Sequence record: MF158041 | DNA length: 64,000 nucleotides | Direction: 5' to 3' (one strand) | Source: Shigella phage Sf15 | Part shown: in pieces, positions 8,213-43,020 of the stretch | Numbering within the stretch: the first letter of the stretch is position 1 | How the letters are laid out: each line of letters starts with the position of its first letter | Program-made: the position numbers and the translations under genes | The notes under the pieces: generated by a model | The model's database searches: none | Seen by the model: only the letters and a program-made list of their open reading frames with translations | What the model was told of the DNA's origin: nothing

Positions 8213-8636
8213 CTTTAATCTCTCTCATTTTGTTAATAGTAAGTCGTGATAATCTTAAGCTTTCTTGTGAAGAGAAGTCAAGCCCTTTTTCAGACCGTGG
8301 GAAGTAATTTCTGTCCCATGTATTCTCTGCATCCTGAAGCAGTTGGGATAGACTATCTAAGTCCGTTCCATTTTGCAACTTATTTTTTAAGGTATCTATC
8401 AAAAAGATTGTGTCTTTCGCTTTACGTCTTTCTGAAGATATCTCTTTCATGTGCTCAAATACCGAGCACTTTAAACCTTCGTCATATCCACTTGATAGTT
8501 CTATCTCATGCTGAACATCAACCATTCGACGATGTTGATAAGCATACTCCTTCTGAGCCTCAATGTAAAGTGCTTCAACTTTTTCTAAAGCTTGGACAAG
8601 GTTATTGATATCTGGGTGAACGTACATCCTCTGCAT
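8196..8636 (-). CDS. hypothetical protein
   Basis: 146 aa ORF, first gene of the minus-strand early block. Confidence 0.45.
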   Translation of the reverse strand: MQRMYVHPDINNLVQALEKVEALYIEAQKEYAYQHRRMVDVQHEIELSSGYDEGLKCSVFEHMKEISSERRKAKDTIFLIDTLKNKLQNGTDLDSLSQLLQDAENTWDRNYFPRSEKGLDFSSQESLRLSRLTINKMREIKDENCK

Positions 8637-8895
8637 GATTGCCTCTGTTAAGTATCTATAAAGATTTTAATCTCTTATCTTTATGTATGTTATACATATA
8701 ACTTTAAAGCTTTTTAAAAGCTATTAAAAATCTTTTAAGACTTTTAAAGAAACTGTATAGTTAATCTATAAAGGGAGTCTATTAAGATAAAACCCACTTC
8801 GAAAAGACTAACACCTTGTCAAGTAGTTTGTCAACTTGCTTTTTGAAGAAAATTGCTGTAGGGTATTATCCAGAATGATTTGAGAGGGAGTAAAA

Positions 8896-11595
8896 ATGGA
8901 CAATGTAGATTTCGAAAAATTACATTTGGTTGGTGATACAGAAACTGATGGGTTGCTCCTTGAGTTTACAAAAGCACACGTAATGGCTTTCGCAGACTAT
9001 AAAGATGACAGTGATGAACCTGCTGTGTGGGTTTTCACTGATGAGCCTATTCTTGGTCACAAGTATACAAAATACATCAAAGGTGGTCTGCGTGAAGGTG
9101 TTGAGTTTGCACTGAAAGCTAAACGTCTTTGTATCCACAATGGTCTTGGTTATGACTGGTGGGTGTTTAATCACATTGCACCTGACCTGTGGAACTTTGA
9201 GAATCCTAAGTGTAAGCCTTGGAGTGACTTCTTTCAGGATTCACTTATCCAATCTCGCGTACAGTGGATGGATAGACCTACACCAAAAGGTTACAAAGGT
9301 GCTCATGGTTTGGCTGCATGGGGTGCTCGTGTAGGTGTCCGTAAACCAGAGATTGAAGAGTGGGGTGTCTGGAATGCAGAGATTCTTACTCGTGTTGTAG
9401 AAGATATTAAGATTAACGCCAAAACTAAACGTGCTCTTGATAATGAGTACCTCAAGCTTAAGAAGTGTGGTGTTGACACTTATGAAACCTACATGCGAGC
9501 TAAAGAAACATCCTTCTGGATGAGTCAGCAAGCTATCAACGGTTGGAAAGCTGATGTAGAACTTATGCAGTTCCACGTTAAAGAACTTGACAAGTTAACT
9601 AACGAGTTGGCTGCTGAGGTTGAACCACACCTTCCACCAACTATTAAGACAAAAGGTAAAGTCACAGGTGAAGAATTTGCCAAGTCTTGGAACGAGTATG
9701 TAGATACATTTGGTCACGTTGATGGTTTGAAAAGGATTACCAAGTACCCTAAGACAAAGTATCGTGAACAGATGCGTGAAGGTGAGTTGAAGCAGTACCC
9801 TATCAAGCCGTATGGTAAGCCAACTACAAAGATTTTTAATGTTGAGAAGCGCAACTGCTACACTCCAACTAACACGGTCACAAAAGAAGAGTACCCTGAA
9901 GGTTTTGTAGCAATGAAAGATGCTCGTGCAGTTTGTAATGAACTGAATGAGAAGATTGGCAAGAAGTGTAAAGATTGGAAGCCAGTTAAGACTGTGAAAA
10001 CTGTGAAGTACTACAACGTTCACGTTGTTAATCACTTTGAGTTAGAGTCTAGTCGCTACACTGGTTTGATTGATGCACCATTTACACCAATTGAGTTTGA
10101 AGTTTCACGAATGACTCAGGTAGCTGTGGTGAAGGATTACTTAAAATCCGTTGGTTGGATTCCTGATGATTGGAACTATAAAAAAGATTCTGATGGTCGT
10201 CCTATCAAGGTTTGCAGATTCAAAGACAACAAAAAGATGATTCGCAAACATCCTAAGTGGGATGAGATGGTTGAACGTTGTGGATTGAATTACATTGAGC
10301 ATGAAGGTGTCTATTACATTGAGCATAACTGGTCTGTTAAGAAGTACACAGATGTGCTTGAGCCTTGCTTGATTAGGACTTCACCAAAGCTTACAGAGTC
10401 TTCTTATGATACAATCGAAGGTGAGCTTGGACAGAAGATTGCGAAGTACTATACTTTGATGCACCGACGCAGGACTATTGAGAACTCAAAGGATGATGAG
10501 AAAGGTTGGCTGAACCAGATTCGTCCAGATGGTCGTTTGAGTGCAGGTGCAATGGTGTTTGGTACTTCTACTGGACGTATGACTCAGTATGGTATTGTAA
10601 ACGTACCTTCTGGTGCTGCCGTGTACGGTGAGCCAATGAGGGCAGTGTGGATTTGTGAAGAGGGAACCAACGTAGTATCTGTTGATATGAACTCTGCACA
10701 GCTTGTACTACTCTGTAACTTCATGGGTGATAAAGACTTCACCAAAGCGGTAACAGAGGGTAAAGAAGAGATTGAGTTTGTCCGTCAAGAGGATGGAAGA
10801 TACTACTGTAAACACTTTGACCAGTATCTGAATCCAGAGATTGACAAGTATCTGCGTTACGACTCTGAAAACGATTTGTACGTAGTTTACTCAGGGACTG
10901 ATGCTCACACTCTGAACAGTATCTACTTCAGCCTTAATGATGAGCAAGATATCTTGACTTGTCGTGCTACTCAGGATGAGAATCTTCTTCATGAGATTAG
11001 CAAGGGACGTAAGAAAGCTAAGAATGGTATCTATGCTTTGTTGTTCGGTGCAGGTGATGAGAAGTTTGCCAAGACAATTAAAGCAGCAACTACTCAGGAA
11101 GGTGCATTGACTAAGCAGACTTACTTTGTGCGTTTGCCGAAGATTAAGAAACTGTTAGACAACTTGGAAGCTGATTTCAAAGCAACTAAGAAAGCACTTG
11201 AAGAGGTGTTTGGTAAAACTGCTGCAATCTCTAAAGGTGGTTTTGTGAAGGTTGCTGGGGCTTGGCTGTGGTGTAAGTCTCCACACAAACTCTTGAACTA
11301 TTTGCTGATGGGTTCAGAAGCACAAGTTCAGAATGAAGCAATCAACCTTGCATGTCGTCGTATGATTGACGAAGGTTTGATGAAGTTGAATGGTCGTAAA
11401 CCAGCTATTGGTGCTCGCTTACTCTGTGCTTACCACGATGAAACAAGCTGGGAATGTCCAGAGAGCATGACAGCAGATGTGAAAGCAGTAACTGACTGGT
11501 ATTATGGTCAAGCATCTAAGAACCTTGGGCTAAGAAAAGAGACATTGGTCACAGGTGCAGGGAAAGTTGGTAAATCGTGGCTTGAAGTCCACTAA
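8896..11595 (+). CDS. family A DNA polymerase with 3'-5' exonuclease domain
   Basis: Exo I motif DTETDGL; motif B RKKAKNGIYALLFGAG; motif C YHDE; GGAG-type RBS. Confidence 0.9.
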   Translation: MDNVDFEKLHLVGDTETDGLLLEFTKAHVMAFADYKDDSDEPAVWVFTDEPILGHKYTKYIKGGLREGVEFALKAKRLCIHNGLGYDWWVFNHIAPDLWNFENPKCKPWSDFFQDSLIQSRVQWMDRPTPKGYKGAHGLAAWGARVGVRKPEIEEWGVWNAEILTRVVEDIKINAKTKRALDNEYLKLKKCGVDTYETYMRAKETSFWMSQQAINGWKADVELMQFHVKELDKLTNELAAEVEPHLPPTIKTKGKVTGEEFAKSWNEYVDTFGHVDGLKRITKYPKTKYREQMREGELKQYPIKPYGKPTTKIFNVEKRNCYTPTNTVTKEEYPEGFVAMKDARAVCNELNEKIGKKCKDWKPVKTVKTVKYYNVHVVNHFELESSRYTGLIDAPFTPIEFEVSRMTQVAVVKDYLKSVGWIPDDWNYKKDSDGRPIKVCRFKDNKKMIRKHPKWDEMVERCGLNYIEHEGVYYIEHNWSVKKYTDVLEPCLIRTSPKLTESSYDTIEGELGQKIAKYYTLMHRRRTIENSKDDEKGWLNQIRPDGRLSAGAMVFGTSTGRMTQYGIVNVPSGAAVYGEPMRAVWICEEGTNVVSVDMNSAQLVLLCNFMGDKDFTKAVTEGKEEIEFVRQEDGRYYCKHFDQYLNPEIDKYLRYDSENDLYVVYSGTDAHTLNSIYFSLNDEQDILTCRATQDENLLHEISKGRKKAKNGIYALLFGAGDEKFAKTIKAATTQEGALTKQTYFVRLPKIKKLLDNLEADFKATKKALEEVFGKTAAISKGGFVKVAGAWLWCKSPHKLLNYLLMGSEAQVQNEAINLACRRMIDEGLMKLNGRKPAIGARLLCAYHDETSWECPESMTADVKAVTDWYYGQASKNLGLRKETLVTGAGKVGKSWLEVH

Positions 11596-11656
11596 TAGTG
11601 TTGACAAGGTGCTCATGGAAGAGTACCTTATACTATATATTGTATAGGAGACTTGT

Positions 11657-11857
11657 ATGACTATTTCAGAAATTGAAGTTCAACTGCAATGTGCTGGATA
11701 TTCTCAAAGTGAGATTGAGGCTATGTGCATCATCATTTGCAGTAGCCATAAGCACCTCAAGCTTTCTAATGAAAATCTTCGCAAGGTTGATATTTTTATT
11801 GCTGGAGGTAAGATTATCAAGGATAAGACAGGCTACCTTAAAGGTGAACGTCTATGA
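11657..11857 (+). CDS. hypothetical small protein
   Basis: 66 aa ORF, RBS GGAG upstream. Confidence 0.4.
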   Translation: MTISEIEVQLQCAGYSQSEIEAMCIIICSSHKHLKLSNENLRKVDIFIAGGKIIKDKTGYLKGERL

Positions 11858-12063
11858 GCCATCGTGGAAGAACTCATCTCGCCATGATGCAAGGTGCTTC
11901 AAAAGAGACTATCAAGAATCGGAAGAAAACTCTTTTTGACAGAATGAATAGACTCATCGATAATGCAAGCCTACCTAACTCTGAAAAGGTTTTCTTGAAA
12001 GGGAATCTGAAGAGTATTGCACAGGAACTTATTGACATTGAATTTTGGAGACACCAAAAATGA
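11854..12063 (+). CDS. hypothetical small protein
   Basis: 69 aa ORF, start overlaps previous stop. Confidence 0.4.
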   Translation: MSHRGRTHLAMMQGASKETIKNRKKTLFDRMNRLIDNASLPNSEKVFLKGNLKSIAQELIDIEFWRHQK

Positions 12064-12251
12064 CATACGAAGAAGCTCTCGAAGCTATGAAACAGGGCAA
12101 GAAAGTTCGAAATGAAAATTTCACATCTGATGAGTTCTTTGAAATAAAAGACGGAAAGGTTGTATGTGAAATGGGTTACCCAATGGCTGCATGGTACAAG
12201 GGGGAACCTTGGCAGAAAACTGGATGGAGTATCTTTAATGAAACTTTATAG
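12045..12251 (+). CDS. hypothetical small protein
   Basis: 68 aa ORF. Confidence 0.4.
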   Translation: METPKMTYEEALEAMKQGKKVRNENFTSDEFFEIKDGKVVCEMGYPMAAWYKGEPWQKTGWSIFNETL

Positions 12252-12381
12252 CATTTGGGGAAGAGTTGGTGAAGGTTATGACTGGACTCTTCTTAAAACA
12301 AATGTTAAAAGTAACGAGATAGCTTACTACAAAATCTATTACCATAAAACTTTTAGAGAGGTAGAGTATCGTGAGCAATAA
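12238..12381 (+). CDS. hypothetical small protein (47 aa)
   Basis: ATG at 12238 preceded by GGAG; internal part of track ORF 12160-12381. Confidence 0.35.
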   Translation: MKLYSIWGRVGEGYDWTLLKTNVKSNEIAYYKIYYHKTFREVEYREQ

Positions 12382-12622
12382 AGAGCAAGAAGCTTTAGCA
12401 ATCTTCAAGAGCGAAGACAAATCAATAGCTTTTGTCTCAGAGGCTTGGTGCAGGGATTTGGGGTATGATTGGTATCTCTTCTTATGCGCTAAGAAAGATG
12501 TTAAACCAGTTGATGAAACCCGATTCAAAGAACTGTATAATATCTGCCAAGAGGGTTATGAAGAACATTACGAAGGTTCTTTGAATCCTGTAAATTCAAA
12601 AGCTTCAGATTTATTTTATTGA
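12371..12622 (+). CDS. hypothetical protein
   Basis: 83 aa ORF, GTG start with GAGG RBS. Confidence 0.45.
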   Translation: MSNKEQEALAIFKSEDKSIAFVSEAWCRDLGYDWYLFLCAKKDVKPVDETRFKELYNICQEGYEEHYEGSLNPVNSKASDLFY

Positions 12623-12632
12623 GAGGTTTGAA

Positions 12633-12878
12633 ATGTTAAAATTATTGATACCAGCTTTAGTAGTCCTACTGGTTGGATGTAACCCTTCTTATGAGAATAA
12701 GGATGCTTCTTACAGACTTCCTCCAGAAATGCAAGACTGCAAGATTTATAAACTTAATGGTGATGCCATTAGCAGGGATGTTATTGTAGTTCGCTGCCCA
12801 AATTCTCAGACGACAACTTCTTACAAGTATGGGAAGAATAGTCAGTCACACACCACAGTTTTTGATGGGGGATATTAA
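12633..12878 (+). CDS. putative lipoprotein
   Basis: signal peptide MLKLLIPALVVLLVGC with lipobox-like LVGC. Confidence 0.5.
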   Translation: MLKLLIPALVVLLVGCNPSYENKDASYRLPPEMQDCKIYKLNGDAISRDVIVVRCPNSQTTTSYKYGKNSQSHTTVFDGGY

Positions 12879-12879
12879 T

Positions 12880-13086
12880 ATGCAGGTTCTGGTAAACTTT
12901 ATCTATAAGTATGAAAACATCTTCAGCACTATGACTGTAGCTCAACGCAATCCAGTTATTCCACGAGAAGGGGAGACTGTTGAGATTAATGATTGGAGCT
13001 ACAGAGTTGAAGAGGTCAAGCATAAACTTAAAGATGGTTATGACCACCAAGTTGTAAATGTGTATTTAAAAGGTAAGTGGCAATGA
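12880..13086 (+). CDS. hypothetical small protein
   Basis: start chosen at MQVLVNF with upstream GGGGG RBS. Confidence 0.4.
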   Translation: MQVLVNFIYKYENIFSTMTVAQRNPVIPREGETVEINDWSYRVEEVKHKLKDGYDHQVVNVYLKGKWQ

Positions 13087-13616
13087 GTGAAAAAAGGTTA
13101 TTCAAAGAGTCCTACAGTAATCTGAAGATGGGTTATCAAGGCTACTCAATACCTTGGTATGAAGATAAGAAAAAACAGTATTCAAACCCTTTTATATATC
13201 AACCTGTAAAACTCTCTGTACTGGAGTTTTGGCATGAAACTGGAGCTACGCCATACCAATTTGACAACATGGAATATGCGCGTATTTGTAAAAGTCTTGG
13301 TGCAAGACAAGTTGATAATATCATTGAACATTTGAAGGATTTGTATAAAGATTTTGCTGGATACTTATACGAGAAACAGTTTGGGGAGTGCTTAAAATAC
13401 CCAGATGGGTCACTTGTTCTGCTCTCATACATGTCTAATGGTAACATAAAAATTGCATACAAAGACCTGTGTGATAACTACTATGATTTTTATACTAGAT
13501 TGAGACTACCATACCCAGATAGCTCCTTTTCCTTATCTAGCAATGCAATGACGCACTCTGGGAATATTGTTTCTGTTGAAAAATTAAAAAAGACGTGGGA
13601 GAAGAAAAATAAATGA
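13083..13616 (+). CDS. hypothetical protein
   Basis: about 177 aa ORF with AAGG RBS. Confidence 0.45.
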   Translation: MSEKRLFKESYSNLKMGYQGYSIPWYEDKKKQYSNPFIYQPVKLSVLEFWHETGATPYQFDNMEYARICKSLGARQVDNIIEHLKDLYKDFAGYLYEKQFGECLKYPDGSLVLLSYMSNGNIKIAYKDLCDNYYDFYTRLRLPYPDSSFSLSSNAMTHSGNIVSVEKLKKTWEKKNK

Positions 13617-14713
13617 CAATTCTGTACAAACAAAATAAAGATGGTTCTTTCAACGTCTGGTCATGTGTTGCTGTAGGTGATAAAGTCGTCACAACTTATG
13701 GTAAAGAAAATGGCAAGATGATGTTTGAAGAGTACACAGCAGAGCCAAAGAACATCGGTAAGAAGAATGAGCGTAATGCTGAACAGCAAGCTCTTTTTGA
13801 AGTTGCTGCTAAGTACAAGAAGCAGGTTGACCGTAAAGGGTATGCTTACACAAAATCTGAAGCAGAGAATGTTGAGAAGGTTGGTGTACAGCTTGCTCAG
13901 GATGCTTCCAAGATAAGTCACAAGAAGTATCTGGTATTCCCTGCCGATGCTCAACCTAAACTTGATGGGGTTCGTTGCAGGATTTCAAGAGATGCTGACT
14001 CAGAAAGTTTTACAGCATATTCTCGTGAGAACACGGTATACAACATTCCTATAGAGTTGATTCCTGATGTTCTTCTTATGCTGAAACTGCACAAAGATGT
14101 TGAGGATTTCGACGGGGAGATTTATGCTCATGGTTGGGACTTGGAAGATATTGTATCTATGATTAAGAATGCTGACAATCCAGACCGTCACCTTCTTAAA
14201 TTCTACTGGTATGATATCTGTGACAAGACTAAATCTTGGCCTGAGCGTCGTGAAGTTATTGATAATTCACCAATCGTTGAACTCGGTGATGCTTGCAGGG
14301 TTGTACCTGTTCAGACAATCCGTGTTAACTCTTGGGAAGAATTTGATAATGCTCATGACAACTGGGTTAAACTCAAGTTTGAAGGGGCAATGTATCGGTC
14401 AATCTCACCAGATTCGTTCTATGAGTGTGGTCATCGCTCTTACTTCCTGATTAAGCACAAGAAGATGCACACACAGGAATTTAAAGTAACTGGTGTAAAG
14501 ACTGATAAACGTGGTCATGGTAAGTTCGTTGTAGAGACTCTTCCTAACGTCTTTGTAGATGTTTCATGGAAAACTGCACACGAGAAGAAAAAGTATCTTG
14601 CTGAACATCCTGAAGAGTTTATCGGGAAGCCTTTAACGGTTCAGTTCCAGAAGATGACTCGTAAGGGTTCTTTACAGTTCCCTGTTGGGCTAGTAATTCG
14701 AGATTATGAATAG
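13613..14713 (+). CDS. ATP-dependent DNA ligase
   Basis: adenylation motif I KLDGVRC (KxDGxR); size as T7-type ligases. Confidence 0.75.
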   Translation: MTILYKQNKDGSFNVWSCVAVGDKVVTTYGKENGKMMFEEYTAEPKNIGKKNERNAEQQALFEVAAKYKKQVDRKGYAYTKSEAENVEKVGVQLAQDASKISHKKYLVFPADAQPKLDGVRCRISRDADSESFTAYSRENTVYNIPIELIPDVLLMLKLHKDVEDFDGEIYAHGWDLEDIVSMIKNADNPDRHLLKFYWYDICDKTKSWPERREVIDNSPIVELGDACRVVPVQTIRVNSWEEFDNAHDNWVKLKFEGAMYRSISPDSFYECGHRSYFLIKHKKMHTQEFKVTGVKTDKRGHGKFVVETLPNVFVDVSWKTAHEKKKYLAEHPEEFIGKPLTVQFQKMTRKGSLQFPVGLVIRDYE

Positions 14714-14876
14714 AGGTTAGTATGTTTAGTACAATTATCCTGTTTGTTTTTGTTGTTTTATCATTATCTTACTTCATAAGTAAACTGTTAAGTATAACAT
14801 ACAAAGCAGCCTTAGCCCTTACTCTGTTATCATTTGCAGTGAATGCAGCAGTTAGGATGTATTTAGTATAAAGTTG

Positions 14877-14904
14877 TTGACATGAGTAACCTGACGGGTA
14901 TACT
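14877..14904 (+). promoter_or_regulatory. sigma70-like promoter TTGACA-16-TATACT
   Basis: consensus -35 and near-consensus -10, 50 bp upstream of the secreted-protein gene. Confidence 0.55.
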
Positions 14905-14937
14905 GCCTATATAGAAAATTATATAGGAACCCGTCAG
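14891..14937 (+). promoter_or_regulatory. 47-bp nested palindrome in promoter/leader (operator or leader hairpin)
   Basis: outer arms CTGACGGG / CCCGTCAG, inner arms CCTATATA / TATATAGG; overlaps -10. Confidence 0.5.
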
Positions 14938-14954
14938 AAACCTCGGAGGTAGTT

Positions 14955-15335
14955 ATGAAAAAGTTACTTGTTGGTGTTGTTGCTCTTGGTATGAGTTTTA
15001 GTGCAGCAGCTATGAAGATGCCTGAAGCAAACTTTAATGGTGTTGCTTTAGAATCTTGTAAGATTGTACAGAAAATTGCTTCAAATGCTGGAGAGTTGAC
15101 TAAACCGTTGTCTGCTCAGACTGTTCAAGAAATGACTGATAAGATGGTTGACTACAACTACCATTTTATGGGAGATTACTATGACAGATTGGCAGATGAG
15201 ATGGTTACTCAGAACGTTGACCTTCTTGATAGCAAAGGTATTGAGACTGTAGAAGATGTGAAAGACAACTTTATGCGTGAGTCTTTCAAAGGTGTTCAAT
15301 ACTTTATTGAAAATCGTCACTGCATGGGTTTATAA
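14955..15335 (+). CDS. secreted or periplasmic protein
   Basis: N-terminal signal peptide MKKLLVGVVALGMSFSAAA; own promoter and structured leader. Confidence 0.5.
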   Translation: MKKLLVGVVALGMSFSAAAMKMPEANFNGVALESCKIVQKIASNAGELTKPLSAQTVQEMTDKMVDYNYHFMGDYYDRLADEMVTQNVDLLDSKGIETVEDVKDNFMRESFKGVQYFIENRHCMGL

Positions 15336-15337
15336 TC

Positions 15338-15541
15338 ATGAAGAAGAACATCTGTAGAGTGGACTACGGTGAAGTAGTCGATGATGACGGAGTAGTTATT
15401 TACAGAGTTTGGGCAAGTGATTATTCAACCGTTGTAGAGTCTTTAGATAACTACATCAATGGGACTCGTGAAAACGTCAGAGCAACTAATCTTGATTCGT
15501 TAATAGACACTTCTCGAAAACGGAGAAAGAAAGATGAATGA
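15338..15541 (+). CDS. hypothetical small protein
   Basis: 67 aa ORF. Confidence 0.4.
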   Translation: MKKNICRVDYGEVVDDDGVVIYRVWASDYSTVVESLDNYINGTRENVRATNLDSLIDTSRKRRKKDE

Positions 15542-15833
15542 AGTCTTTGACCCTTATGCACCCCAAGATTCTTGGGAGGCTGATAGGGAGGCGGAAATGG
15601 AGAGTTATATCTGTCCAATGGATATAGAAGAGATGAAAGACTTTGTATCTTTCAGATTCTCTAAAGAGATTGAGAAGCTAAAACTTTCTCAGGCTCAAGT
15701 AGCAACTGTTTGTGAAATCTCACAGAGTCGTGTGTCAAATATCATTAACGACCCTCAAAAGATTTCTTTAGAGTACATGCTTAATGCTTGTACAAAACTT
15801 GGTGTAAACTTTAACTTAAGGCTGGCAGATTAA
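15534..15833 (+). CDS. XRE-family helix-turn-helix DNA-binding protein
   Basis: LSQAQVATVCEISQSRVSNI matches HTH_XRE pattern. Confidence 0.5.
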   Translation: MNEVFDPYAPQDSWEADREAEMESYICPMDIEEMKDFVSFRFSKEIEKLKLSQAQVATVCEISQSRVSNIINDPQKISLEYMLNACTKLGVNFNLRLAD

Positions 15834-15834
15834 T

Positions 15835-16194
15835 ATGAAACGTGAAAATGCAATCTTTAACGATAACTTTGCAATTGGCTTCTATGGTAAACCAACTCCA
15901 GCAGAGAAGCTTTATGGTAATGCAATTCTGGAGACCTTGAAAGAGGTTTACACAACTGGTGGTATGAAGCATACTGAAGCAAATCGTGTAAGAGGTTATA
16001 TGGCAATTGGCTCTGCAATCTCTAACATCAAACTTGAAACTACAAGTGCTAAAAAGGTGCGAGACCACTTCATCAAAGAGTTGTCAGAGAACCTAGATGG
16101 TGTTGATGTTAAGGCTGTCTGGTTAGATGTTGATGGTCACAACTACACAACTTTTGTGTTTAAAAATGAGGATATCAAATGTCTCTTCCCTTAA
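15835..16194 (+). CDS. hypothetical protein
   Basis: 119 aa ORF. Confidence 0.45.
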   Translation: MKRENAIFNDNFAIGFYGKPTPAEKLYGNAILETLKEVYTTGGMKHTEANRVRGYMAIGSAISNIKLETTSAKKVRDHFIKELSENLDGVDVKAVWLDVDGHNYTTFVFKNEDIKCLFP

Positions 16195-16682
16195 AACTCA
16201 ATTTATACTTTGGGTACAGTGTATTGCAAGGCAGCATACTGTCACTACCAAAGTCAGATTATCGTTGTGATTTAGGTTCTGTGAAACGTGCATCACACTT
16301 TAACAACAACATCTTAGGCTTGCAGACACTTCACAGGTGGCTTGAGGAAGATGGACGGTTGAATGAATATCTTCACCAACTAGAACTAGCCAAAGAAGAA
16401 GGGCATATGGGTTGGGATTTACTACCCCATCTGTACAAACCTGCAAGCCCTATGGAGATACGCTATAACGAACAAGCGATTGATAGTTATAACAAATATA
16501 ATATAACTATTGGCTCAAGAGCTTGGAAGGAATATGGAAAGCTCCGTGAAATCATTATACAGACCATTGGAAAGCGTGTAGCAAAAGGTATTGCTTATGA
16601 TGAAAAGGTTGACTGGAATACACAAAAGTGTATAAAATTCTTCAAGTACGATAATGACAAAGATACTTTTGTAGAGGTTTAA
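16179..16682 (+). CDS. hypothetical protein
   Basis: 167 aa ORF. Confidence 0.45.
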   Translation: MSLPLKLNLYFGYSVLQGSILSLPKSDYRCDLGSVKRASHFNNNILGLQTLHRWLEEDGRLNEYLHQLELAKEEGHMGWDLLPHLYKPASPMEIRYNEQAIDSYNKYNITIGSRAWKEYGKLREIIIQTIGKRVAKGIAYDEKVDWNTQKCIKFFKYDNDKDTFVEV

Positions 16683-16683
16683 C

Positions 16684-17199
16684 ATGAAAATTGGAATTAC
16701 CCTTTGCCAGCCTGAAGCAGAGTTCTTGAAATCAATGTTGTCTGAGCATATGAAGTCCACAAATCATACTGAGAAGACATTCTTGATTGACACTAATTAT
16801 GATGCAGGAACTATTGAGTTCATTGATGAAGACACTGCTGATTCCTTGTGTGTTCTTCCTGCTCACTTATTTACTCCAGAGCTACGTGAGAGTCGTTCTA
16901 TTGAAGTTAATCTGGAGCCAAGTATTGAACTGTACTCAGACATACAGTATCCAAGAAGCTTTAAAGCATTGCTAAACATCTTCATAGCTGATATTGTAGA
17001 GATTGTTAAGCAGACCGAAGGTGGTCATGTAGTAACTGCTGAGTATGAACAAGGGACTATCAAACTGACAGGTGACTTTGGTTCTATGAGTTTCTTAGAC
17101 TTTGTTCCAAAACACTTTGAAGATTTCCTGTCAAGTGAAGTTGATGACCTTGATTTCATACTAAAATTTGAACGCACTTTTAAGGTAAACAAAAAATGA
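16684..17199 (+). CDS. hypothetical protein
   Basis: 171 aa ORF. Confidence 0.45.
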   Translation: MKIGITLCQPEAEFLKSMLSEHMKSTNHTEKTFLIDTNYDAGTIEFIDEDTADSLCVLPAHLFTPELRESRSIEVNLEPSIELYSDIQYPRSFKALLNIFIADIVEIVKQTEGGHVVTAEYEQGTIKLTGDFGSMSFLDFVPKHFEDFLSSEVDDLDFILKFERTFKVNKK

Positions 17200-17468
17200 A
17201 AATCTTAAGCGGAGTATCACAGTGTTACATGAATGATGGTGAGCCAGTTAAATGCTGCCATTGTGGAGGTGAGAACTTCCAAGGTGAAGTTTCAGAGATT
17301 GTCTCTGGCAATATCGCTGAAGAGTACACCCGTTGCTGTGGATGTGGAAAGATTTTATCTTTTTGGGCTTATGGAAGTTATGAACCACAACCTCACCTTA
17401 TTTACCATCCAAACAGGATTGTGAAGCGTGTTCTGAACTGGTTCATTATCAAAGGATTTACAAAATGA
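17196..17468 (+). CDS. zinc-ribbon protein
   Basis: CCHCGG and CCGCGK cysteine pairs. Confidence 0.45.
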   Translation: MKILSGVSQCYMNDGEPVKCCHCGGENFQGEVSEIVSGNIAEEYTRCCGCGKILSFWAYGSYEPQPHLIYHPNRIVKRVLNWFIIKGFTK

Positions 17469-18010
17469 TTAAGTTAATTTTTGCAAGTGGTATTAACGGG
17501 GAGTTTGGCACAGCTACTGGAATGCCTTGGCCTCGTAATAAACAAGATATGGCAGAGTTTAAGAAGCAGACTGTTAACCAGTTAGTCTTGATGGGTAGCG
17601 AAACTTGGAAGACTCTTGGGAGCAAGCCTTTGCCAAACCGTGAGAACCTTGTCTTGACAAACTCTCTTGACTTTTATGGTCTGGATTTTAAAGATGACTC
17701 TTATTGTAAAGCAAGAGTTAAGCCTGAAGCTTTTGGGGCTTTCCTGAAGTATATTGATAGCTCTATTGATGAAGATGTTTTAGTAATCGGTGGAGCCAAT
17801 ATCTTAATCTCAGCTTTACCGTATGCTGACGTAGTTTTCCACAGTGTTATTAAGGAAGTTACTGAAGAGGCTACTGTCAAGCTACCTTATGAGGGTTTCT
17901 TCCAGTACTTGTATGACACAGATTTATTTGCTAAAGTACAGTCCAAACCTTCAGAAGATAAGTCTGTGGTGTTTGATACATATGTTCCACAAGTAAGAGG
18001 ACGTTTCTAA
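17465..18010 (+). CDS. folA: dihydrofolate reductase
   Basis: MPW, LVLMGSETW, KPLPNREN, VIGGANI motifs align to DHFR; directly upstream of thymidylate synthase. Confidence 0.8.
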   Translation: MIKLIFASGINGEFGTATGMPWPRNKQDMAEFKKQTVNQLVLMGSETWKTLGSKPLPNRENLVLTNSLDFYGLDFKDDSYCKARVKPEAFGAFLKYIDSSIDEDVLVIGGANILISALPYADVVFHSVIKEVTEEATVKLPYEGFFQYLYDTDLFAKVQSKPSEDKSVVFDTYVPQVRGRF

Positions 18011-18011
18011 T

Positions 18012-18911
18012 ATGTCACAAGCAGATGTAAGCTACAAAGCTATTTTAAACCATGTTTTATCAGTTGGTGAGTTGCGTAAAACCAGAACTGGCTCAGTGAT
18101 TTCGACCTTTGCTCCACCTGAGTTCCGTTTTGATATGCGTAGTGGATTTCCATTAATCACCTCAAAACAAACATTTATGCGTCAAGTCCTCGGTGAAGCA
18201 TTATGGTTTATGAACGGTGAAAACCAACTAGGTCATTTGCGTTACAGAACTTGGGGAGAGAACGACGGAGAGCGTTGGACTATCTGGACAGATGATTTTA
18301 AACGTTGGTTGAAAACAACCTATGCTACAGAGAATGATTGGCTGGAGGACGCTGGAGGAAGAATCTACGGAGTCCAATGGAGAGCCTACGAAGGTCATGG
18401 TGGCGTTGTTGTAGACCAGTTGAGTAATCTTGTAGAGAAGATGAGAAAGTCTCCTACAGACCGTTACATGCTCGTTAACGCATGGAATGCAGCAGATATA
18501 TCAAGTAACTCTATGGCATTAGCACCTTGCCATGTACTTTTTCAGATTTACATCTCGAACACTAATGAGGTGGATTTGAAATGGTATCAGCGCTCTTGTG
18601 ATACGTTCTTAGGGTTACCATTTAACATTGCTTCCTATGCCTTTATCTTGGAGGTGTTGTGTAAACTGACGGGATATACACCGCGATATCTGGTAGGGAC
18701 TTATGGTGATACTCAAATCTATCAGAACCATATGTCGCAGGTTTTTAAGCTTCTTGGCAATGAAGAGTTTCCAGCACCTAAGTTTGAAATTCATCAAGAT
18801 TTAAAGTCTCTTGAAGATTTGAGACATATGACAGCAGATGACTTCCTAGGTGGGTTGAAAGGGTATAAACATGCTGGTAAGATTGAAGCACCTTTATCAG
18901 TAGGTAAGTAG
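18012..18911 (+). CDS. thyA: thymidylate synthase
   Basis: active-site region MALAPCHVLFQIY matches ThyA signature. Confidence 0.9.
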   Translation: MSQADVSYKAILNHVLSVGELRKTRTGSVISTFAPPEFRFDMRSGFPLITSKQTFMRQVLGEALWFMNGENQLGHLRYRTWGENDGERWTIWTDDFKRWLKTTYATENDWLEDAGGRIYGVQWRAYEGHGGVVVDQLSNLVEKMRKSPTDRYMLVNAWNAADISSNSMALAPCHVLFQIYISNTNEVDLKWYQRSCDTFLGLPFNIASYAFILEVLCKLTGYTPRYLVGTYGDTQIYQNHMSQVFKLLGNEEFPAPKFEIHQDLKSLEDLRHMTADDFLGGLKGYKHAGKIEAPLSVGK

Positions 18912-18958
18912 AAACAAAAAAGGCTCCCGTAAAAAGGAGCCTTAGAATTATTTCTTTT
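18912..18958. terminator. bidirectional intrinsic terminator between convergent genes
   Basis: hairpin AGGCTCC-CGTAAAA-GGAGCCT at 18921-18942 flanked by A-run and T-rich run. Confidence 0.6.
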
Positions 18959-19322
18959 TAGTGCTTTGGGTATTTTGTTCTGTAATTGCTTGCAAAGCTG
19001 ATACAGATTGTGCTAAGTTGTTAACACTGTCAGAGAACTTATCAAGGGTCTTAGTCAACTTAGCGTTTTCTCCCTTAACATTCTCTAGCTGAACTTTCTG
19101 GTTCTCCATCCCTAATTGTAGGAGCTTCATATCAGATTGTAAGTCACGAATAGCTGAATAGTTACCTTTTGAGTAACCATCCAACTGCTGTAACTTATTT
19201 GTGATAGACACTTCCTGTTTACCATCAGAGACCTGCATTGTAGTGTACATACCAATTACACTGAAAATACCTACAACGATTGCACCAATATTATTCTTAA
19301 AAGCATCTTCAAGCCACTTCAT
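18948..19322 (-). CDS. membrane-anchored coiled-coil protein (spanin-like architecture)
   Basis: N-terminal TM helix IGAIVVGIFSVIGMY then long coiled coil. Confidence 0.4.
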   Translation of the reverse strand: MKWLEDAFKNNIGAIVVGIFSVIGMYTTMQVSDGKQEVSITNKLQQLDGYSKGNYSAIRDLQSDMKLLQLGMENQKVQLENVKGENAKLTKTLDKFSDSVNNLAQSVSALQAITEQNTQSTKKK

Positions 19323-19516
19323 TATTTCTCACCTTTAAAAGCCTTTTCCAAGGTATCTACAAATTCATCATCAATAGGTGTATCTGTTTTACTCGCAAGG
19401 TATCTTGCAAGCTTAAAGAACACTTTTTCAATCATGTATTCACTGAGAAGAGAAAAAAGAAGCTTCCAAAAGAATGCCCCAAGGTTTTTCATGAGGATTG
19501 CTAGAATGGTTGGCAT
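19322..19516 (-). CDS. small hydrophobic protein
   Basis: 64 aa with hydrophobic N-terminal half. Confidence 0.4.
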   Translation of the reverse strand: MPTILAILMKNLGAFFWKLLFSLLSEYMIEKVFFKLARYLASKTDTPIDDEFVDTLEKAFKGEK

Positions 19517-19565
19517 TTAATCACCTTACTTCTTGAGCCAAGATGGTGAGAATACCTACTAAGAA

Positions 19566-19594
19566 ATATTAACACCATCTTGACAGTTAGTCAA
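19566..19594 (-). promoter_or_regulatory. sigma70-like promoter (TTGACT-17-TAATAT on minus strand)
   Basis: read from reverse complement; sits within 10-bp inverted repeat CAAGATGGTG / CACCATCTTG. Confidence 0.45.
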
Positions 19595-19602
19595 CAAGGT
19601 AA

Positions 19603-21981
19603 TTATGCAGTTCTTACCCAAGCCATTAATTTAATGTAAGTGTTAAGAACACTGAATGCTGCACCAGAACCAGTTGCACCAGTGTTACCACTGAATGTGT
19701 GGTTGTGAGCACCAATGCCTACACCGTGACCGTGAGCACCTACCCAACTTGTTCTCCCTGTCCAAGTTCTTGATGCGTAGAAGTTAACTGGTGTACCATA
19801 AGTGAACTGTGAACCAGTATAACCTCTAGAGGCTTGTGAACCTGAGATAGCAAACGCCCCACTTGCTGTATAAAAGCTGTTTGCGTCACTTCTGAAGAAA
19901 CCAAAGTCACCAGAGATTTCCATGTTACCTCTGTCATGGTCGTGAGCACCTTGAGCGTCTGTGTACTTAGTACCATAATCAAAGGTAGTGGTTGTTCCAG
20001 AGAAGCTGTGAGTGTGCGCAGGGATATGACCAACACTTAATGCAACTGTATCAGCACCACCAAGCCCTTTCACATCGGAACCATTTGCAGAACCGATTCT
20101 AATAGTTCTGTTTGCACCCTCTGTCAAGTAAGTCCAAGTAGTGCCTGGGAAAGCTGTATTTGGGTTGACATTAGAAGCAAAGAACGTCACAATACCAACT
20201 GGATACACTTTCTTAAGGTCTGTAGAATCAGTTACCGCAGAGGCAATACGTTGGTCTACTTCAGCCTTGGTGTAAGCACCAAGTTCAGAGGGTGTAGGTT
20301 TGTCTTGGTCTGTGTAGATTTTAGCCCAAACCTCTTCAAAACCAAATCCATCCCTTGCTGTTCTATAATAGATTCCAGTATTCTTGTAGTTAAATTTAAA
20401 CTGTGCAGTCGGTGTAGATGTACCAACTCCAAGGTGCATTTGGTAAACTAAGTGAGTAGACCCGCCAGTTGAATTTGTAACACTGTACAAACCTGTTTTT
20501 GCATTCCAAGCAATACCTGTTGCATCACCGACTTCGGTTCCAGTTCCAGATACACCAGATAACATATATCTAGAGTTTGCAGCAGACTGTGTGTAGTATC
20601 TTGAGTCGAAGTTTGTCCAATCTGTAGGCTGAACCTGACCAGTTACTGATACGCTTCTGTTGAACATGAAAGTGTCAGCAATTTCTAACTGTACACCACC
20701 ACTTGAATAGTTGTACAGGAACAGAGAATTTGGCCTACTGCCTTCACCGTTACCAATATACCAACGTCTGTTGCCGTCTGCATTAGCGCCAACAATATAC
20801 AGTGATGAATTAGCTGTCCCACTTTGCAATGTGAAAGCAGCATCTGTAGTAACAATAGTTTGTGGGTTAGTAAAAACGTTTGCAGCATTAGTTCTTGCAA
20901 GAACGTTCGTTAAAGAGCTTGGAACATATCTTGTATCAAAGTTTGCAAAGTCACTTGGTTTTACCTGACCAGTTACGTTGATAGCTTTGTTAAATGAAAA
21001 CTCTGTAGCAATTTTCAAGTTAACATTTGTCATCTGGTTTGCTAAAACAATCTCAGACTGCGTACCATCTGGTTGACCCACATACCAAGCACCTGTCCCA
21101 GCACTGTTGTAACCACGCATAAATAATGCAGCATTCTCTGTAGCCGCTCTTAAGTTGAGTGCATTACTATCTGCAATAACGTAAGTCTTCCCGTTGAAGT
21201 TGTTAACCCCAACAAAGTTATTACTTGCATTAAGTCTTGCAAATCTCTGGTCAGCAGCAGTCTGTGTAAAGAATCTTGCATCAAGGTTATTCCAGTTATT
21301 AGGCTGAACCTGACCATTGATTTCAAAGTTCTTATCAACACTAACAGAGTTTGTACCAAGAGTCAACGTAGCACCTTTGCTGTTAACTAATGTAACATCA
21401 GTACCAGAAGTCAAGTTACCAACTGTGAATCTCAAAGCATTATTTGAGTCTCTTGCTTCAATATATGCTCCACCATCTGGTAAGATACTTTTAAGTGTTA
21501 AACCAACACCGTTGATATTAATGATTTGTCTTGCCAAGAAAGTATTTTCAGTTTCCTTCATAGCATATCTTGCATCATTTTCAGTGTTAGTTCTCATACC
21601 TAATTCATTAGGAGATGGTTTATTAAGTGTGTGATAAACTGTTGCAGACCTTGTGGCATCATTTACAGTTAATCTTAAAGCACTTGCATTAATTCTAAAG
21701 GTCTTGGCAGTGTCACCGAGAATAACTTCAGAAGAACCTGTTGGGTCTAATAAGTCTTTTCCACCGTATCTTAATTTAACGATGCCAAGATTTCCTGTCA
21801 TATCCCCACCAGTTAGTTGTAAGAATCTTTCTAGTTTGAAAGAGGCAAGGAAATTTGCATAGGTCATTTTACGGTCTTCATCACCTAGCATATCAGACCT
21901 TTTGATAATTCTTAGGTGAAGTAAATCTTCTGAGCGAACTGTATCAATACTGTTTAGCTCACTTAGCTTATATTCAGCCAT
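19603..21981 (-). CDS. tail fiber protein (long)
   Basis: 792 aa, repetitive beta-rich sequence, C-terminal His-rich HxH repeats (GAHGHGVGIGAHNHTF) ending WVRTA. Confidence 0.65.
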   Translation of the reverse strand: MAEYKLSELNSIDTVRSEDLLHLRIIKRSDMLGDEDRKMTYANFLASFKLERFLQLTGGDMTGNLGIVKLRYGGKDLLDPTGSSEVILGDTAKTFRINASALRLTVNDATRSATVYHTLNKPSPNELGMRTNTENDARYAMKETENTFLARQIININGVGLTLKSILPDGGAYIEARDSNNALRFTVGNLTSGTDVTLVNSKGATLTLGTNSVSVDKNFEINGQVQPNNWNNLDARFFTQTAADQRFARLNASNNFVGVNNFNGKTYVIADSNALNLRAATENAALFMRGYNSAGTGAWYVGQPDGTQSEIVLANQMTNVNLKIATEFSFNKAINVTGQVKPSDFANFDTRYVPSSLTNVLARTNAANVFTNPQTIVTTDAAFTLQSGTANSSLYIVGANADGNRRWYIGNGEGSRPNSLFLYNYSSGGVQLEIADTFMFNRSVSVTGQVQPTDWTNFDSRYYTQSAANSRYMLSGVSGTGTEVGDATGIAWNAKTGLYSVTNSTGGSTHLVYQMHLGVGTSTPTAQFKFNYKNTGIYYRTARDGFGFEEVWAKIYTDQDKPTPSELGAYTKAEVDQRIASAVTDSTDLKKVYPVGIVTFFASNVNPNTAFPGTTWTYLTEGANRTIRIGSANGSDVKGLGGADTVALSVGHIPAHTHSFSGTTTTFDYGTKYTDAQGAHDHDRGNMEISGDFGFFRSDANSFYTASGAFAISGSQASRGYTGSQFTYGTPVNFYASRTWTGRTSWVGAHGHGVGIGAHNHTFSGNTGATGSGAAFSVLNTYIKLMAWVRTA

Positions 21982-22026
21982 TTATAAATCCTCTTTCTAG
22001 GGGCTGTGTAGCCCCTTATAAAATAA

Positions 22027-42518: not shown

Positions 42519-42725
42519 TTATTCAGAAACTTCTTCAGATTCCTGTTTAGGTTCTACACCAAACTTTTCATCTACTAAATTAAGAAGTTTATCCATCGTT
42601 GCTTCTTGTGGGTTAATACCAGTTGCAACAATTAAACGTTCAGCCACAGCCATTACAGTTGCTTGAAGCATCTGAGCCTGTTTCTGAGTTTCATATAGTT
42701 CTTTGTAAACATTAGTCTCGTTCAT
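42519..42725 (-). CDS. hypothetical small protein upstream of terminase
   Basis: 68 aa, GGAG RBS; too small to call small terminase. Confidence 0.4.
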   Translation of the reverse strand: MNETNVYKELYETQKQAQMLQATVMAVAERLIVATGINPQEATMDKLLNLVDEKFGVEPKQESEEVSE

Positions 42726-42761
42726 TGTATTTCTCCAAAATTAAAGTTATAGTGATTCTCC

Positions 42762-42788
42762 TGAAAAAAGACGGTGCAGAGACCGTCA
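42762..42788 (-). terminator. intrinsic terminator closing the tRNA transcription unit
   Basis: minus-strand hairpin GACGGT-CTCTGC-ACCGTC followed by TTTTTT. Confidence 0.55.
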
Positions 42789-42944
42789 AGGAGAAACCAC
42801 AATGTATGCCAGAGACATACTGTATAGGTCTTCCCATAAAGTATAACTCTATAAAAAAGCCCTGTCTAAAAATACTCTCCGGTAGCGAAAGGGAGAATAC
42901 TCATAGCAGGGCATAATAACTTTGAGAGAGATATTAATATAAAT

Positions 42945-43020
42945 TGGAGTATCGGAAGGGACTCGAACCCTCATAAACCTGTTTTGCAGACAGGCACATA
43001 ACCATTTCTGACACCGACAC
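42945..43020 (-). tRNA. tRNA-Cys (GCA)
   Basis: manual fold: 7-bp acceptor, T-arm, anticodon loop shows codon TGC on plus strand; CCA encoded. Confidence 0.7.

What the first reader, a model, noticed from the sequence alone, without database searches (positions are those of the whole stretch)
14877..14955. Nested 47-bp palindrome overlapping the promoter of a secreted-protein gene, sharing the CTATATAG motif with the distant repeat array
Promoter TTGACA-16-TATACT is followed by a perfect two-level inverted repeat (CTGACGGG...CCCGTCAG outside, CCTATATA...TATATAGG inside). The inner arms match the CTATATAG palindromes clustered at 58520-58770, suggesting one DNA-binding regulator recognises both loci, or the leader forms a very stable RNA hairpin.
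Basis: seen in the sequence. Interest (0 to 1): 0.55.

Follow-up and report, generated by a model that had tools for sequence, protein, structure and literature searches.

The report
Phage promoter with built-in stem-loop
The palindrome is real: it is a hairpin built across a conserved host-type promoter of a Felix O1-like phage, resembling the promoter/stem-loop cassettes known from T4-like phages, and its suggested link to the distant CTATATAG repeat array is not supported.

Summary
The window comes from a Mooglevirus (a Felix O1-like phage, subfamily Ounavirinae), 99% identical to Shigella phage ESh20. The described sequence is present as stated. TTGACA-16-TATACT lies at 14877-14904, 9-bp outer arms at 14891-99/14929-37, and 8-bp inner arms at 14906-13/14920-27. 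It folds far better than shuffled sequence.

The promoter hexamers are invariant in relatives. The outer stem occurs as four unrelated arm pairs at the same alignment columns, paired in 100% of cells. Pairing is therefore conserved, not sequence, which argues against a fixed protein operator.

The left arms lie upstream of the predicted start (about 14911). The hairpin can therefore only form in RNA read through from the ligase operon, not in this promoter's own leader.

The element sits at an indel hot spot. Relatives carry 0.3-2.1 kb, with or without genes of unknown function, between two promoters, and the window's element is a chimera of those two. Similar promoter-plus-hairpin units recur in the window. 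All of this matches the PeSL (promoter-early stem-loop) cassettes of T4-like phages.

The CTATATAG link fails. Outside the array the motif is at background frequency. Relatives keep the array copies but lack the motif at this promoter.

Verdict: a new member of a known kind, of modest interest. Function is inferred, not shown.

The parts
14722..14871 (+). Upstream 49-aa ORF. Its TAA stop (14869-14871) lies in the AT-rich stretch just before the -35 hexamer.
   Evidence: annotated CDS in phage 3HA14. PHROG 22006, function unknown.
14866..14876 (+). A/T-rich stretch upstream of the promoter (GTATAAAGTTG), conserved as AAAGTTG before TTGACA.
   Evidence: AA.TTGTTGACA is invariant in alignment A2.
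14877..14882 (+). -35 hexamer TTGACA.
   Evidence: Invariant in the 9 sequences of A2; the class-B members are shared by about 30 loci.
14899..14904 (+). -10 hexamer TATACT. It lies in the internal loop of the hairpin, and its first T is the last base of the left outer arm.
   Evidence: GTATACT is invariant in A2.
14891..14899 (+). Left outer arm CTGACGGGT, made of the last 8 nt of the promoter spacer plus the first base of the -10 hexamer.
   Evidence: Covaries with the right arm in four unrelated versions.
14929..14937 (+). Right outer arm ACCCGTCAG. It lies within a 17-nt insertion relative to the Moogle P2 leader.
14906..14913 (+). Left inner arm CCTATATA. It contains CTATATAG (14907-14914) and the predicted transcription start at about 14911.
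   Evidence: The start site is inferred from the usual 7-nt distance after the -10 hexamer; it has not been measured.
14920..14927 (+). Right inner arm TATATAGG. It is part of an AT-rich leader, ATAC-AAAAT-(N0-2)-TATATAGG, that is conserved in sequence in both promoter classes.
14945..14949 (+). Shine-Dalgarno sequence GGAGG, 5 nt before the ATG at 14955.
   Evidence: Annotated as a ribosome-binding site in Michonne.
14955..15335 (+). 126-aa gene with a signal-peptide-like N-terminus. It is the first gene of the run 14955-18911, which includes the XRE/HTH_3 gene (15534-15833), dihydrofolate reductase (DHFR) and thymidylate synthase.

Best explanation
This is a composite promoter/stem-loop cassette of the kind called PeSL (promoter-early stem-loop) in T4-like phages, found here in a Felix O1-like phage.

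Shown by the sequence data:
- A near-consensus host sigma-70 promoter (AAAGTTG-TTGACA-16-TATACT) sits just downstream of the DNA-ligase gene, or of a small ORF that follows it, in the Ounavirinae genomes examined.
- A stem-loop is built across its -10 hexamer and start site. The 5' arm lies in the spacer and the 3' arm lies about 25-30 nt downstream, just before the Shine-Dalgarno sequence.
- The stem is kept by wholesale compensatory replacement of both arms, while the promoter hexamers stay invariant.
- The element is the joint of an insertion/deletion hot spot. Relative to phage Moogle it is a chimera of that phage's two promoters, P1 and P2.

Inferred:
- RNA polymerase starts at about 14911, so the promoter's own mRNA lacks both 5' arms and has an open 44-nt leader.
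- Only RNA reading through from the polymerase-ligase operon folds the hairpin.
- On that read-through RNA the hairpin most likely attenuates transcription, or defines and protects the 3' end of the upstream message. The promoter then restarts expression of the 126-aa gene through thyA.
- Recombination between such promoter cassettes adds and removes genes of unknown function.

The perfect inner CCTATATA/TATATAGG stem is a lineage-specific extension of the hairpin, made from a conserved AT-rich leader.
For: Identity and anatomy.

Stability: RNA z = -4.4 and DNA z = -5.4, each with 0 of 200 shuffles as good. All four orthologous versions put the outer stem in their minimum-energy fold.

Covariation (alignment A2):
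- Four unrelated arm pairs occupy the same columns: CTGACGGGT/ACCCGTCAG, TTAGTGGGT/ACCCACTAG, ACATAGCAAGT/ACTTGCTATGT and TTGGTGAGTA/TACTCACCAG.
- Across 9 pairs, 100% of cells are paired and 5 pairs change on both sides. Controls with the partner slid by 1-3 columns give 32-40% paired.
- The hexamers AA.TTGTTGACA and GTATACT are invariant.
- The U-G wobbles at pair 30-79 fit only the sense strand.

Within the window's own lineage (5 genomes), 0 of 34 arm positions vary against 11 of 49 other intergenic positions (Fisher P = 0.0018).

Hot spot:
- The distance from ligase to the 126-aa gene ranges from about 90 bp to 2.1 kb.
- Class-B relatives carry P1, then a GT-rich untranslated stretch, then optional genes of unknown function, then P2. 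These genes have no homing-endonuclease domains.
- The window's element equals the P1 upstream half plus the P2 downstream half plus a 17-nt insert carrying the right arm.

Recurrence in the window:
- Hairpins overlapping core promoter elements occur at 4039(-), 11611(+), 19594(-), 49258(-) and 47758(-), with z from -1.9 to -4.5.
- A repeat family of the same build lies at 61.9-63.5 kb.
- The 19594 unit has the same two-level build, and its core arms are invariant in 30 relatives.

Read-through is plausible: the scan of 8000-22000 found no terminator-like site on the + strand upstream of the element.
Against: - There are no transcript data. The promoter, the start site, read-through and any termination or processing are all inferred.
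- The hairpin lacks a U tract (CAG|AAACCUCGG), whereas this genome's ordinary terminators have one. Efficient intrinsic termination is therefore doubtful.
- Only four independent arm versions exist. The tested structure was derived from the window sequence, which favours it against the slid controls.
- Templated correction of quasi-palindromes could keep the arms complementary without selection on function.
- P1 and P2 share only short identity (the hexamers and a few flanking bases), much less than the roughly 100-bp similarity reported between T4-type PeSLs. Homologous recombination at this joint is therefore suggested, not shown.
- PeSLs were defined in an unrelated phage group. The resemblance is architectural, not homologous.
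Confidence: 0.62

Rival explanations
1. The palindrome is an operator. A dimeric DNA-binding protein, for example the XRE/HTH_3 protein encoded at 15534-15833 in the same operon, binds it and represses the overlapping promoter. In the reader's version it also binds the CTATATAG array.
For: - Dyad symmetry overlaps the -10 hexamer and the predicted start site.
- An HTH_3 gene lies two genes downstream.
- No arm position varies within the window's lineage.
- The AT-rich leader ATAC-AAAAT-..-TATATAGG is conserved in sequence in both promoter classes. A site there for a conserved regulator cannot be excluded.
Against: - The outer arms are four unrelated sequences, while the predicted recognition region of the XRE protein (ISQ[S/A]RVSNI) is nearly invariant.
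- The outer half-sites would be about 38 bp apart centre to centre, which by general knowledge is atypical for an HTH dimer.
- The spacing of the inner half-sites changes from 6 to 8 nt, and the left half-site is degenerate in Sf13 and ESh21-type phages.
- The array copies are conserved where the promoter motif is absent.
- The 22-nt dyad is unique in the window.
- The array copies are direct repeats, not dyads.
Confidence: 0.13
2. The two-level hairpin is an RNase III (or other endonuclease) processing signal in the polycistronic early RNA, like the T7 early intercistronic sites. Cleavage would separate the ligase message from the downstream message and leave a protective 3' hairpin.
For: - The window version has a lower stem of 9 bp, an asymmetric internal loop, an upper stem of 8 bp and a 6-nt loop. 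By my own recollection this resembles T7 R1.1-type sites.
- There is no U tract, so the element is not a classical terminator.
- The wobble pairs point to sense-strand RNA.
- All class-A versions have some inner AU stem.
Against: - The helix totals only 17 bp in the window, and the upper stem is weak or absent in other versions. Class-B P1 has a stem of about 10 bp closing a 24-nt loop. By general knowledge this is short for RNase III.
- No cleavage data exist.
- This reading explains neither the obligatory overlap with the promoter nor the recurrence of hairpins around -35 boxes.
Confidence: 0.15
3. The structure acts at the DNA level. The inverted repeat would extrude as a cruciform, or fold in single-stranded DNA, to make the promoter sensitive to supercoiling or to create a target for structure-specific nucleases. 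That would make it a recombination hot spot without any RNA role.
For: - The DNA fold has z = -5.4.
- The element sits exactly at an indel joint.
- PeSL stem-loops were shown to form in single-stranded DNA during sequencing reactions (PMC2839356).
Against: - The arms are separated by 29 nt with an asymmetric interior. By general knowledge this disfavours cruciform extrusion.
- U-G (G-T) wobbles at this and sister elements fit only one strand.
Confidence: 0.06
4. This is a chance palindrome in AT-rich intergenic DNA with no function.
For: The inner arms are pure AT apart from CC/GG, and CTATATAG is at background frequency outside the array.
Against: - 0 of 200 shuffles fold as well.
- There are four compensatory arm versions.
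- Arm positions are invariant within the lineage, P = 0.0018.
Confidence: 0.03

Closest known systems
PeSL (promoter-early stem-loop) cassettes of T4-type phages RB49/phi1, PST and nt-1 (Arbiol et al. 2010, PMC2839356; Comeau et al. 2014, PMC4122927)
   Same: - The upstream gene's stop codon lies in an AT-rich stretch.
- There is a consensus sigma-70 promoter.
- A stem-loop overlaps the -10 box; sister elements in the window have it between the boxes or around the -35 box.
- SD and ATG lie at the 3' end.
- The element sits in a variable region next to small genes of unknown function.
- Indel breakpoints between close relatives fall inside the cassette.
   Different: - The host phage is from an unrelated subfamily (Ounavirinae), and there is no sequence homology to T4-type PeSLs.
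- The two promoters that flank the variable segment share only short identity.
- There is no poly-G/poly-C stem.
- Terminator activity, promoter strength and mini-circle formation have not been tested here.
Intrinsic (rho-independent) terminators
   Same: A stable hairpin containing G+C pairs at the end of an operon, on the sense strand.
   Different: There is no U tract after the stem in the window version, and only 3-4 U in Sf13. The loop is 29 nt and contains a promoter -10 hexamer. The genome's ordinary terminators do have U tracts.
T7-type RNase III intercistronic processing hairpins
   Same: A two-level stem with an asymmetric internal loop, lying between cistrons of an early polycistronic RNA.
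   Different: The helix is shorter. The upper stem is not conserved in relatives. The element overlaps a promoter. No cleavage evidence exists.
Palindromic operators of XRE/Cro-type repressors
   Same: Dyad symmetry over a promoter, with an HTH gene in the same operon.
   Different: The half-site sequences are not conserved while the protein is. The spacing varies. What is conserved is the pairing.

Membership tests
PeSL (promoter-early stem-loop) cassette | Sigma-70-type -35 and -10 boxes close to consensus | tested here: met
   TTGACA-16-TATACT matches 11 of 12 positions. Both hexamers are invariant in relatives. Activity has not been measured.
PeSL (promoter-early stem-loop) cassette | [quoted passage not shown] | tested here: met
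   The TAA stop at 14869-14871 lies within TTTAGTATAAAGTTG, directly before TTGACA.
PeSL (promoter-early stem-loop) cassette | Stable stem-loop between or overlapping the promoter boxes | tested here: met
   The outer stem spans the spacer and -10 hexamer to about +27. z = -4.4. Covariation is seen in four versions.
PeSL (promoter-early stem-loop) cassette | Shine-Dalgarno sequence and start codon at the 3' end of the motif | tested here: met
   GGAGG at 14945-14949 and ATG at 14955.
PeSL (promoter-early stem-loop) cassette | Located in a hyperplastic region and flanking genes of unknown function, with indels between relatives bounded by the motifs | tested here: met
   Variable inserts of 0.09-2.1 kb lie between P1 and P2. 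The window element is a P1/P2 chimera. The cassette genes belong to PHROGs of unknown function.
PeSL (promoter-early stem-loop) cassette | Repeated in the genome, with sequence similarity over about 100 bp between copies | tested here: inconclusive
   Several promoter-plus-hairpin units are present, and a true repeat family lies at 61.9-63.5 kb. This element shares only about 16 nt (ATAAAGTTGTTGACAT) with the unit at 46131 and only the hexamers with the others.
PeSL (promoter-early stem-loop) cassette | The stem-loop terminates or attenuates upstream transcription; recombination between copies yields mini-circles | not testable with these tools
   This needs reporter assays and inverse PCR. 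The absence of a U tract argues against strong intrinsic termination.
Intrinsic terminator | G+C-rich hairpin followed directly by a U tract | tested here: not met
   The scan of 8000-22000 did not call a terminator here. The sequence after the stem is AAACCTCGG.
Operator of a conserved sequence-specific repressor, shared with the 58.5-kb array | Half-site sequence conserved wherever the protein is conserved, and the motif co-occurring at both loci across relatives | tested here: not met
   The outer arms are unrelated in four versions while the XRE recognition region is nearly invariant. The array keeps CTATATAG in Sf13, Felix O1, AYO145A and finno, while the promoter there lacks it.
Any curated RNA family (Rfam 15) | Match to a covariance model | tested here: not met
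   Between 14300 and 15500 the only match is a chance-level mir-70 hit inside the coding region (E = 0.56).

The most novel reading that the evidence does not exclude
Promoter-embedded hairpins could be a genome-wide regulatory grammar of Felix O1-like phages, a group whose temporal control of transcription is unexplained (no phage RNA polymerase or sigma-modifying factors were identified; PMC3185647). Under this reading each hairpin insulates its promoter from upstream read-through, or makes the promoter itself depend on DNA structure. The stems would be replaced wholesale by a dedicated mechanism (templated switching or cassette exchange), so that these units would both time gene expression and drive gene shuffling outside the T4 group.
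Probability: 0.12. Interest if true: 0.6.

Novelty: new member of a known kind. Interest (0 to 1): 0.3.

Why it matters
If confirmed, this would extend promoter/stem-loop cassettes beyond T4-like myoviruses, where they were defined, to the unrelated Felix O1 group. That would suggest a convergent way for virulent phages that rely on host RNA polymerase to insulate genes and to swap accessory genes.

Felix O1-like phages are used for Salmonella typing and biocontrol, and how they time transcription is still unknown.

For annotation, the practical point is that a perfect palindrome over a promoter need not be an operator. Here the comparative data show that pairing is what is conserved.

Tried and rejected
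- Rfam scan of 14300-15500: nothing relevant.
None gave a new arm version beyond the four already seen.
- Covariation at the sister element 19517-19602: the core arms are invariant in 30 loci, with only a C-G to U-G change at the pair that closes the stem. This shows conservation but is not informative for covariation.
- Homing-endonuclease explanation for the indels: the optional 200-aa and 146-aa genes have no Pfam domains and fall in PHROGs of unknown function.
- Search for a regulon of the inner dyad: no second copy within 3 mismatches. A first pattern was mis-specified with one extra N and did not match even the element itself.
- GC skew: it only tracks transcription direction and says nothing about an origin at the array.
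- Locating the physical genome ends relative to the array: the UAB_Phi87 record is not opened at its terminal repeat. BPS15Q2 is opened inside the ORF-free region but carries no terminal duplication. This is only suggestive.
- The predicted promoter P102 in the Felix O1 paper lies in the primase/helicase region and is not this element.
- Literature searches found no description of such cassettes in Felix O1-like phages within the library searched.

Full report
**What the window is.** The 2.6 kb around the finding is 99.2% identical to Shigella phage ESh20 and 95-98% identical to other members of the genus Mooglevirus (subfamily Ounavirinae, the Felix O1-like myoviruses). In annotated relatives the finding lies in the only sizeable gap (83 bp, 14872-14954) of a long same-strand run of genes. 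That run goes DNA polymerase ... DNA ligase (13613-14713), a 49-aa ORF (14722-14871), the gap, a 126-aa ORF (14955-15335), a 67-aa ORF, an XRE/HTH_3 protein (15534-15833) ... dihydrofolate reductase (DHFR), thymidylate synthase.

**Checking the observation.**
- TTGACA (14877-82), a 16-nt spacer and TATACT (14899-904) form the joint-best promoter-like match in 8-22 kb, at 11 of 12 positions.
- The outer arms CTGACGGGT/ACCCGTCAG (14891-99/14929-37) and the inner arms CCTATATA/TATATAGG (14906-13/14920-27) are each perfect.
- The two levels are joined by an asymmetric internal loop, 6 nt on the left (most of the -10 hexamer) and 1 nt on the right. The 47 bp are therefore a two-level hairpin, not one perfect palindrome.
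- The fold is far better than shuffled sequence: RNA -24.7 kcal/mol, z = -4.4; DNA z = -5.4; 0 of 200 shuffles in each case.
- CTATATAG occurs 7 times against 0.85 expected. Five copies are the array itself (58526-58747). Outside it there are two copies against about 0.83 expected, which is background.

**Comparative anatomy.** I fetched the ligase gene with flanks from 29 IMG/VR contigs, plus GenBank relatives.

The distance from ligase to the 126-aa gene varies from about 90 bp to 2.1 kb. Two promoter contexts precede the 126-aa gene.

- *Class A* (the window lineage, the ESh21 type and Sf13): one promoter lies directly after ligase or the small ORF.
- *Class B* (Moogle, SUSP1/2 and the Felixounavirus genomes): the same promoter (P1) follows ligase. 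After it come 250-400 nt of GT-rich untranslated sequence, then optionally two genes of unknown function (200 aa and 146 aa, with no nuclease domains), then a second promoter (P2) in front of the 126-aa gene.

P2 carries its own 13-bp inverted repeat (AAATAAGCTATAA/TTATAGCTTATTT) around its -35 hexamer.

**The key result.** Alignment A2 holds the nine distinct P1 sequences.
- AA.TTGTTGACA and GTATACT are invariant.
- The spacer and the downstream segment carry four unrelated pairs of complementary arms at exactly the same columns. These are CTGACGGGT/ACCCGTCAG (window), TTAGTGGGT/ACCCACTAG (ESh21 type), ACATAGCAAGT/ACTTGCTATGT (Sf13) and TTGGTGAGTA/TACTCACCAG (class-B P1).
- On the nine outer pairs, 100% of cells are paired and five pairs change on both sides. 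Sliding the partner by 1-3 columns gives 32-40% paired.
- The inner helix is well formed only in the window lineage (80% of cells overall).
- All four versions place the outer stem in their minimum-energy fold.
- Within the window lineage (5 genomes), none of the 34 arm positions varies, against 11 of the other 49 intergenic positions (P = 0.0018).

Pairing is thus what is conserved, not arm sequence.

The two U-G wobbles at pair 30-79 fit sense-strand RNA (or single-stranded DNA of that strand) and would be A-C mismatches on the other strand. So do similar wobbles in sister elements.

**Consequence for mechanism.**
- With the -10 hexamer at 14899-14904, transcription should start at about 14911, inside the left inner arm. 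This is an inference from standard promoter geometry.
- The promoter's own transcript therefore lacks both 5' arms. Its 44-nt leader is weakly structured (-7.1 kcal/mol over 69 nt).
- The hairpin can only exist in RNA that reads through from upstream. The terminator scan found no terminator-like site on the + strand upstream of this point, so read-through from the polymerase-ligase genes is expected.
- The hairpin is not followed by a U tract, unlike the ordinary terminators of this genome (7361-7417, 31886-31961, 58376-58397). I therefore regard strong intrinsic termination as unlikely.
- Attenuation, 3'-end definition and protection of the upstream message, or endonucleolytic processing are the more plausible roles. 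None of these has been shown.

**Recurrence.** Of the 20 TTGACA promoter-like sites found in the window, I folded 12. At least six of these have a stable hairpin that overlaps a core promoter element.
- 4039(-): GGAGTAC in the spacer pairs with GTACTCC after the -10 hexamer.
- 11611(+): a hairpin inside a 22-nt spacer.
- 19594(-): upstream of the lysis genes, with the same two-level build and z = -4.5. Its core arms are invariant in 30 relatives.
- 49258(-): arms over both the -35 and -10 hexamers, with two G-U pairs.
- 47758(-): arms around the -35 hexamer.

The early region at 61.9-63.5 kb holds a repeat family in which a TTTACA-17-TATCTT promoter-like site is enclosed by nested stems. The Felix O1 genome paper reported 57-bp direct repeats that appear to be the counterpart of this family (PMC3185647).

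**Comparison with what is known.** The published definition of PeSLs in T4-type phages reads as follows (PMC2839356):
- the stop codon of the upstream gene lies in an AT-rich stretch;
- the -35 and -10 boxes are of sigma-70 type;
- a Shine-Dalgarno sequence and start codon lie at the 3' end;
- the cassettes concentrate in hyperplastic regions next to genes of unknown function;
- the stem-loop acts as a terminator or attenuator of upstream transcription;
- recombination between cassettes causes indels.

The element meets every structural criterion. It also sits at an indel joint. Aligned with Moogle, the window is homologous to P1 up to TTGACAT and again at GTATACT. From TATACT onward it is homologous to P2, with a 17-nt insertion that supplies the right arm.

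Some points do not match or could not be tested. Similarity between copies is short. No activity data exist. There is no homology to the T4-type elements. I found no report of such cassettes in Felix O1-like phages in the library searched. The Felix O1 paper states that temporal control in this phage is not understood.

**The CTATATAG link.** The array lies in a 1.6-kb ORF-free region (58372-59975) between convergent gene blocks. The region is packed with several families of short direct repeats phased at about 11 bp: TCTCTATATAG/CTCTATAAAG, [CT]TAACAAG and CTTTTA[AC]GGTTCT. It is conserved as non-coding DNA across the subfamily.

- Its CTATATAG copies persist in Sf13 (5) and in AYO145A, Felix O1 and finno (3 each).
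- The orthologous promoters of those phages have no CTATATAG.
- The copies in the array are direct repeats, not dyads.
- The 22-nt inner palindrome has no near copy elsewhere in the window.
- The copy at 61392 overlaps a TATAGT -10-like hexamer.
- The XRE protein's helix-turn-helix is almost invariant among phages whose outer arms are unrelated.

I therefore reject a regulator shared between the two loci.

What I cannot exclude is that the AT-rich leader (ATAC-AAAAT-..-TATATAGG) is itself a protein site. It is conserved in sequence in both promoter classes, and the window's inner stem is built from it.

**Verdict.** The best explanation is a PeSL-like promoter/stem-loop cassette at an accessory-gene hot spot of a Felix O1-like phage. 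This is a new member of a known kind, with function inferred only. Interest is modest (0.3).

Noticed in passing
window 58372-59975: A 1.6-kb ORF-free region lies between convergent gene blocks, with a terminator hairpin at each side. It is filled with several families of short direct repeats phased at about 11 bp: TCTCTATATAG/CTCTATAAAG, [CT]TAACAAG and CTTTTA[AC]GGTTCT. It is non-coding in all Ounavirinae examined. The BPS15Q2 record is opened inside it, at about window 59543/59581; ZX4221 and MET-P1-301 appear to be as well. A Felix O1-like phage has 608-bp direct terminal repeats by Bal31 mapping (PMC4837284). The region may hold the genome ends, a packaging site or an origin.
   Followed up: partly
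window 19517-19602 (- strand): TTGACT-17-TAATAT lies between the tail-fibre gene and the lysis genes, with the same two-level hairpin build (CAAGATGGTG / CACCATCTTG around the -10 hexamer; z = -4.5). The core arms are invariant in 30 relatives. The only change, C-G to U-G, is in the pair that closes the stem.
   Followed up: yes
window 60228-63833 (- strand): A family of intergenic repeats precedes nearly every small early gene. Each has a G-rich/C-rich hairpin, in several copies enclosed by an outer stem and a TTTACA-17-TATCTT promoter-like site. A conserved leader CAACAATCCTAAACTGGAGAATCT follows, just before the ATG. The 57-bp and 39-bp direct repeats listed in the Felix O1 genome paper appear to be the counterparts.
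   Followed up: partly
window 54654-54727 (+ strand): TTGACA-18-TATGAT is followed immediately by a canonical terminator-like hairpin with a U tract (GGGAGCTATCGAAAGGTGGTTCCCTTTTTTATT), placed before the Shine-Dalgarno sequence of the next gene. This could be a leader attenuator or a very short RNA.
   Followed up: no
window 11611-11656 (+ strand); class-B P2 in L012 4137-4209: In these promoter-like sites TTGACA and TATACT are 22-23 nt apart, with a hairpin arm or a whole hairpin filling the extra spacer. They are either non-functional as spaced or use an alternative -10 hexamer (TATTTT at 17 nt in P2).
   Followed up: no
L011 3690-3770, L026 3700-3770, L032 3700-3760 (class-B relatives, downstream of P1): A GT-rich untranslated stretch with GGTAAGGT/GGTCGGGT-like repeats follows P1 and a G-U-rich hairpin (ACUUAAGAGUC/GGGUUUUUAAGU). 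It is present whether or not the optional genes are. This could be a non-coding RNA.
   Followed up: no
window 8637-8895: A 259-bp divergent intergenic region lies between the minus-strand and plus-strand gene blocks. It probably holds divergent promoters and was not analysed. It contains a weak 3-mismatch match to a mis-specified leader pattern at 8756, at chance level.
   Followed up: no
window 42700-47800: Large gaps in the ORF map have tRNA-like folds. This probably corresponds to the tRNA cluster known in Felix O1-like phages. ARAGORN was not run.
   Followed up: no
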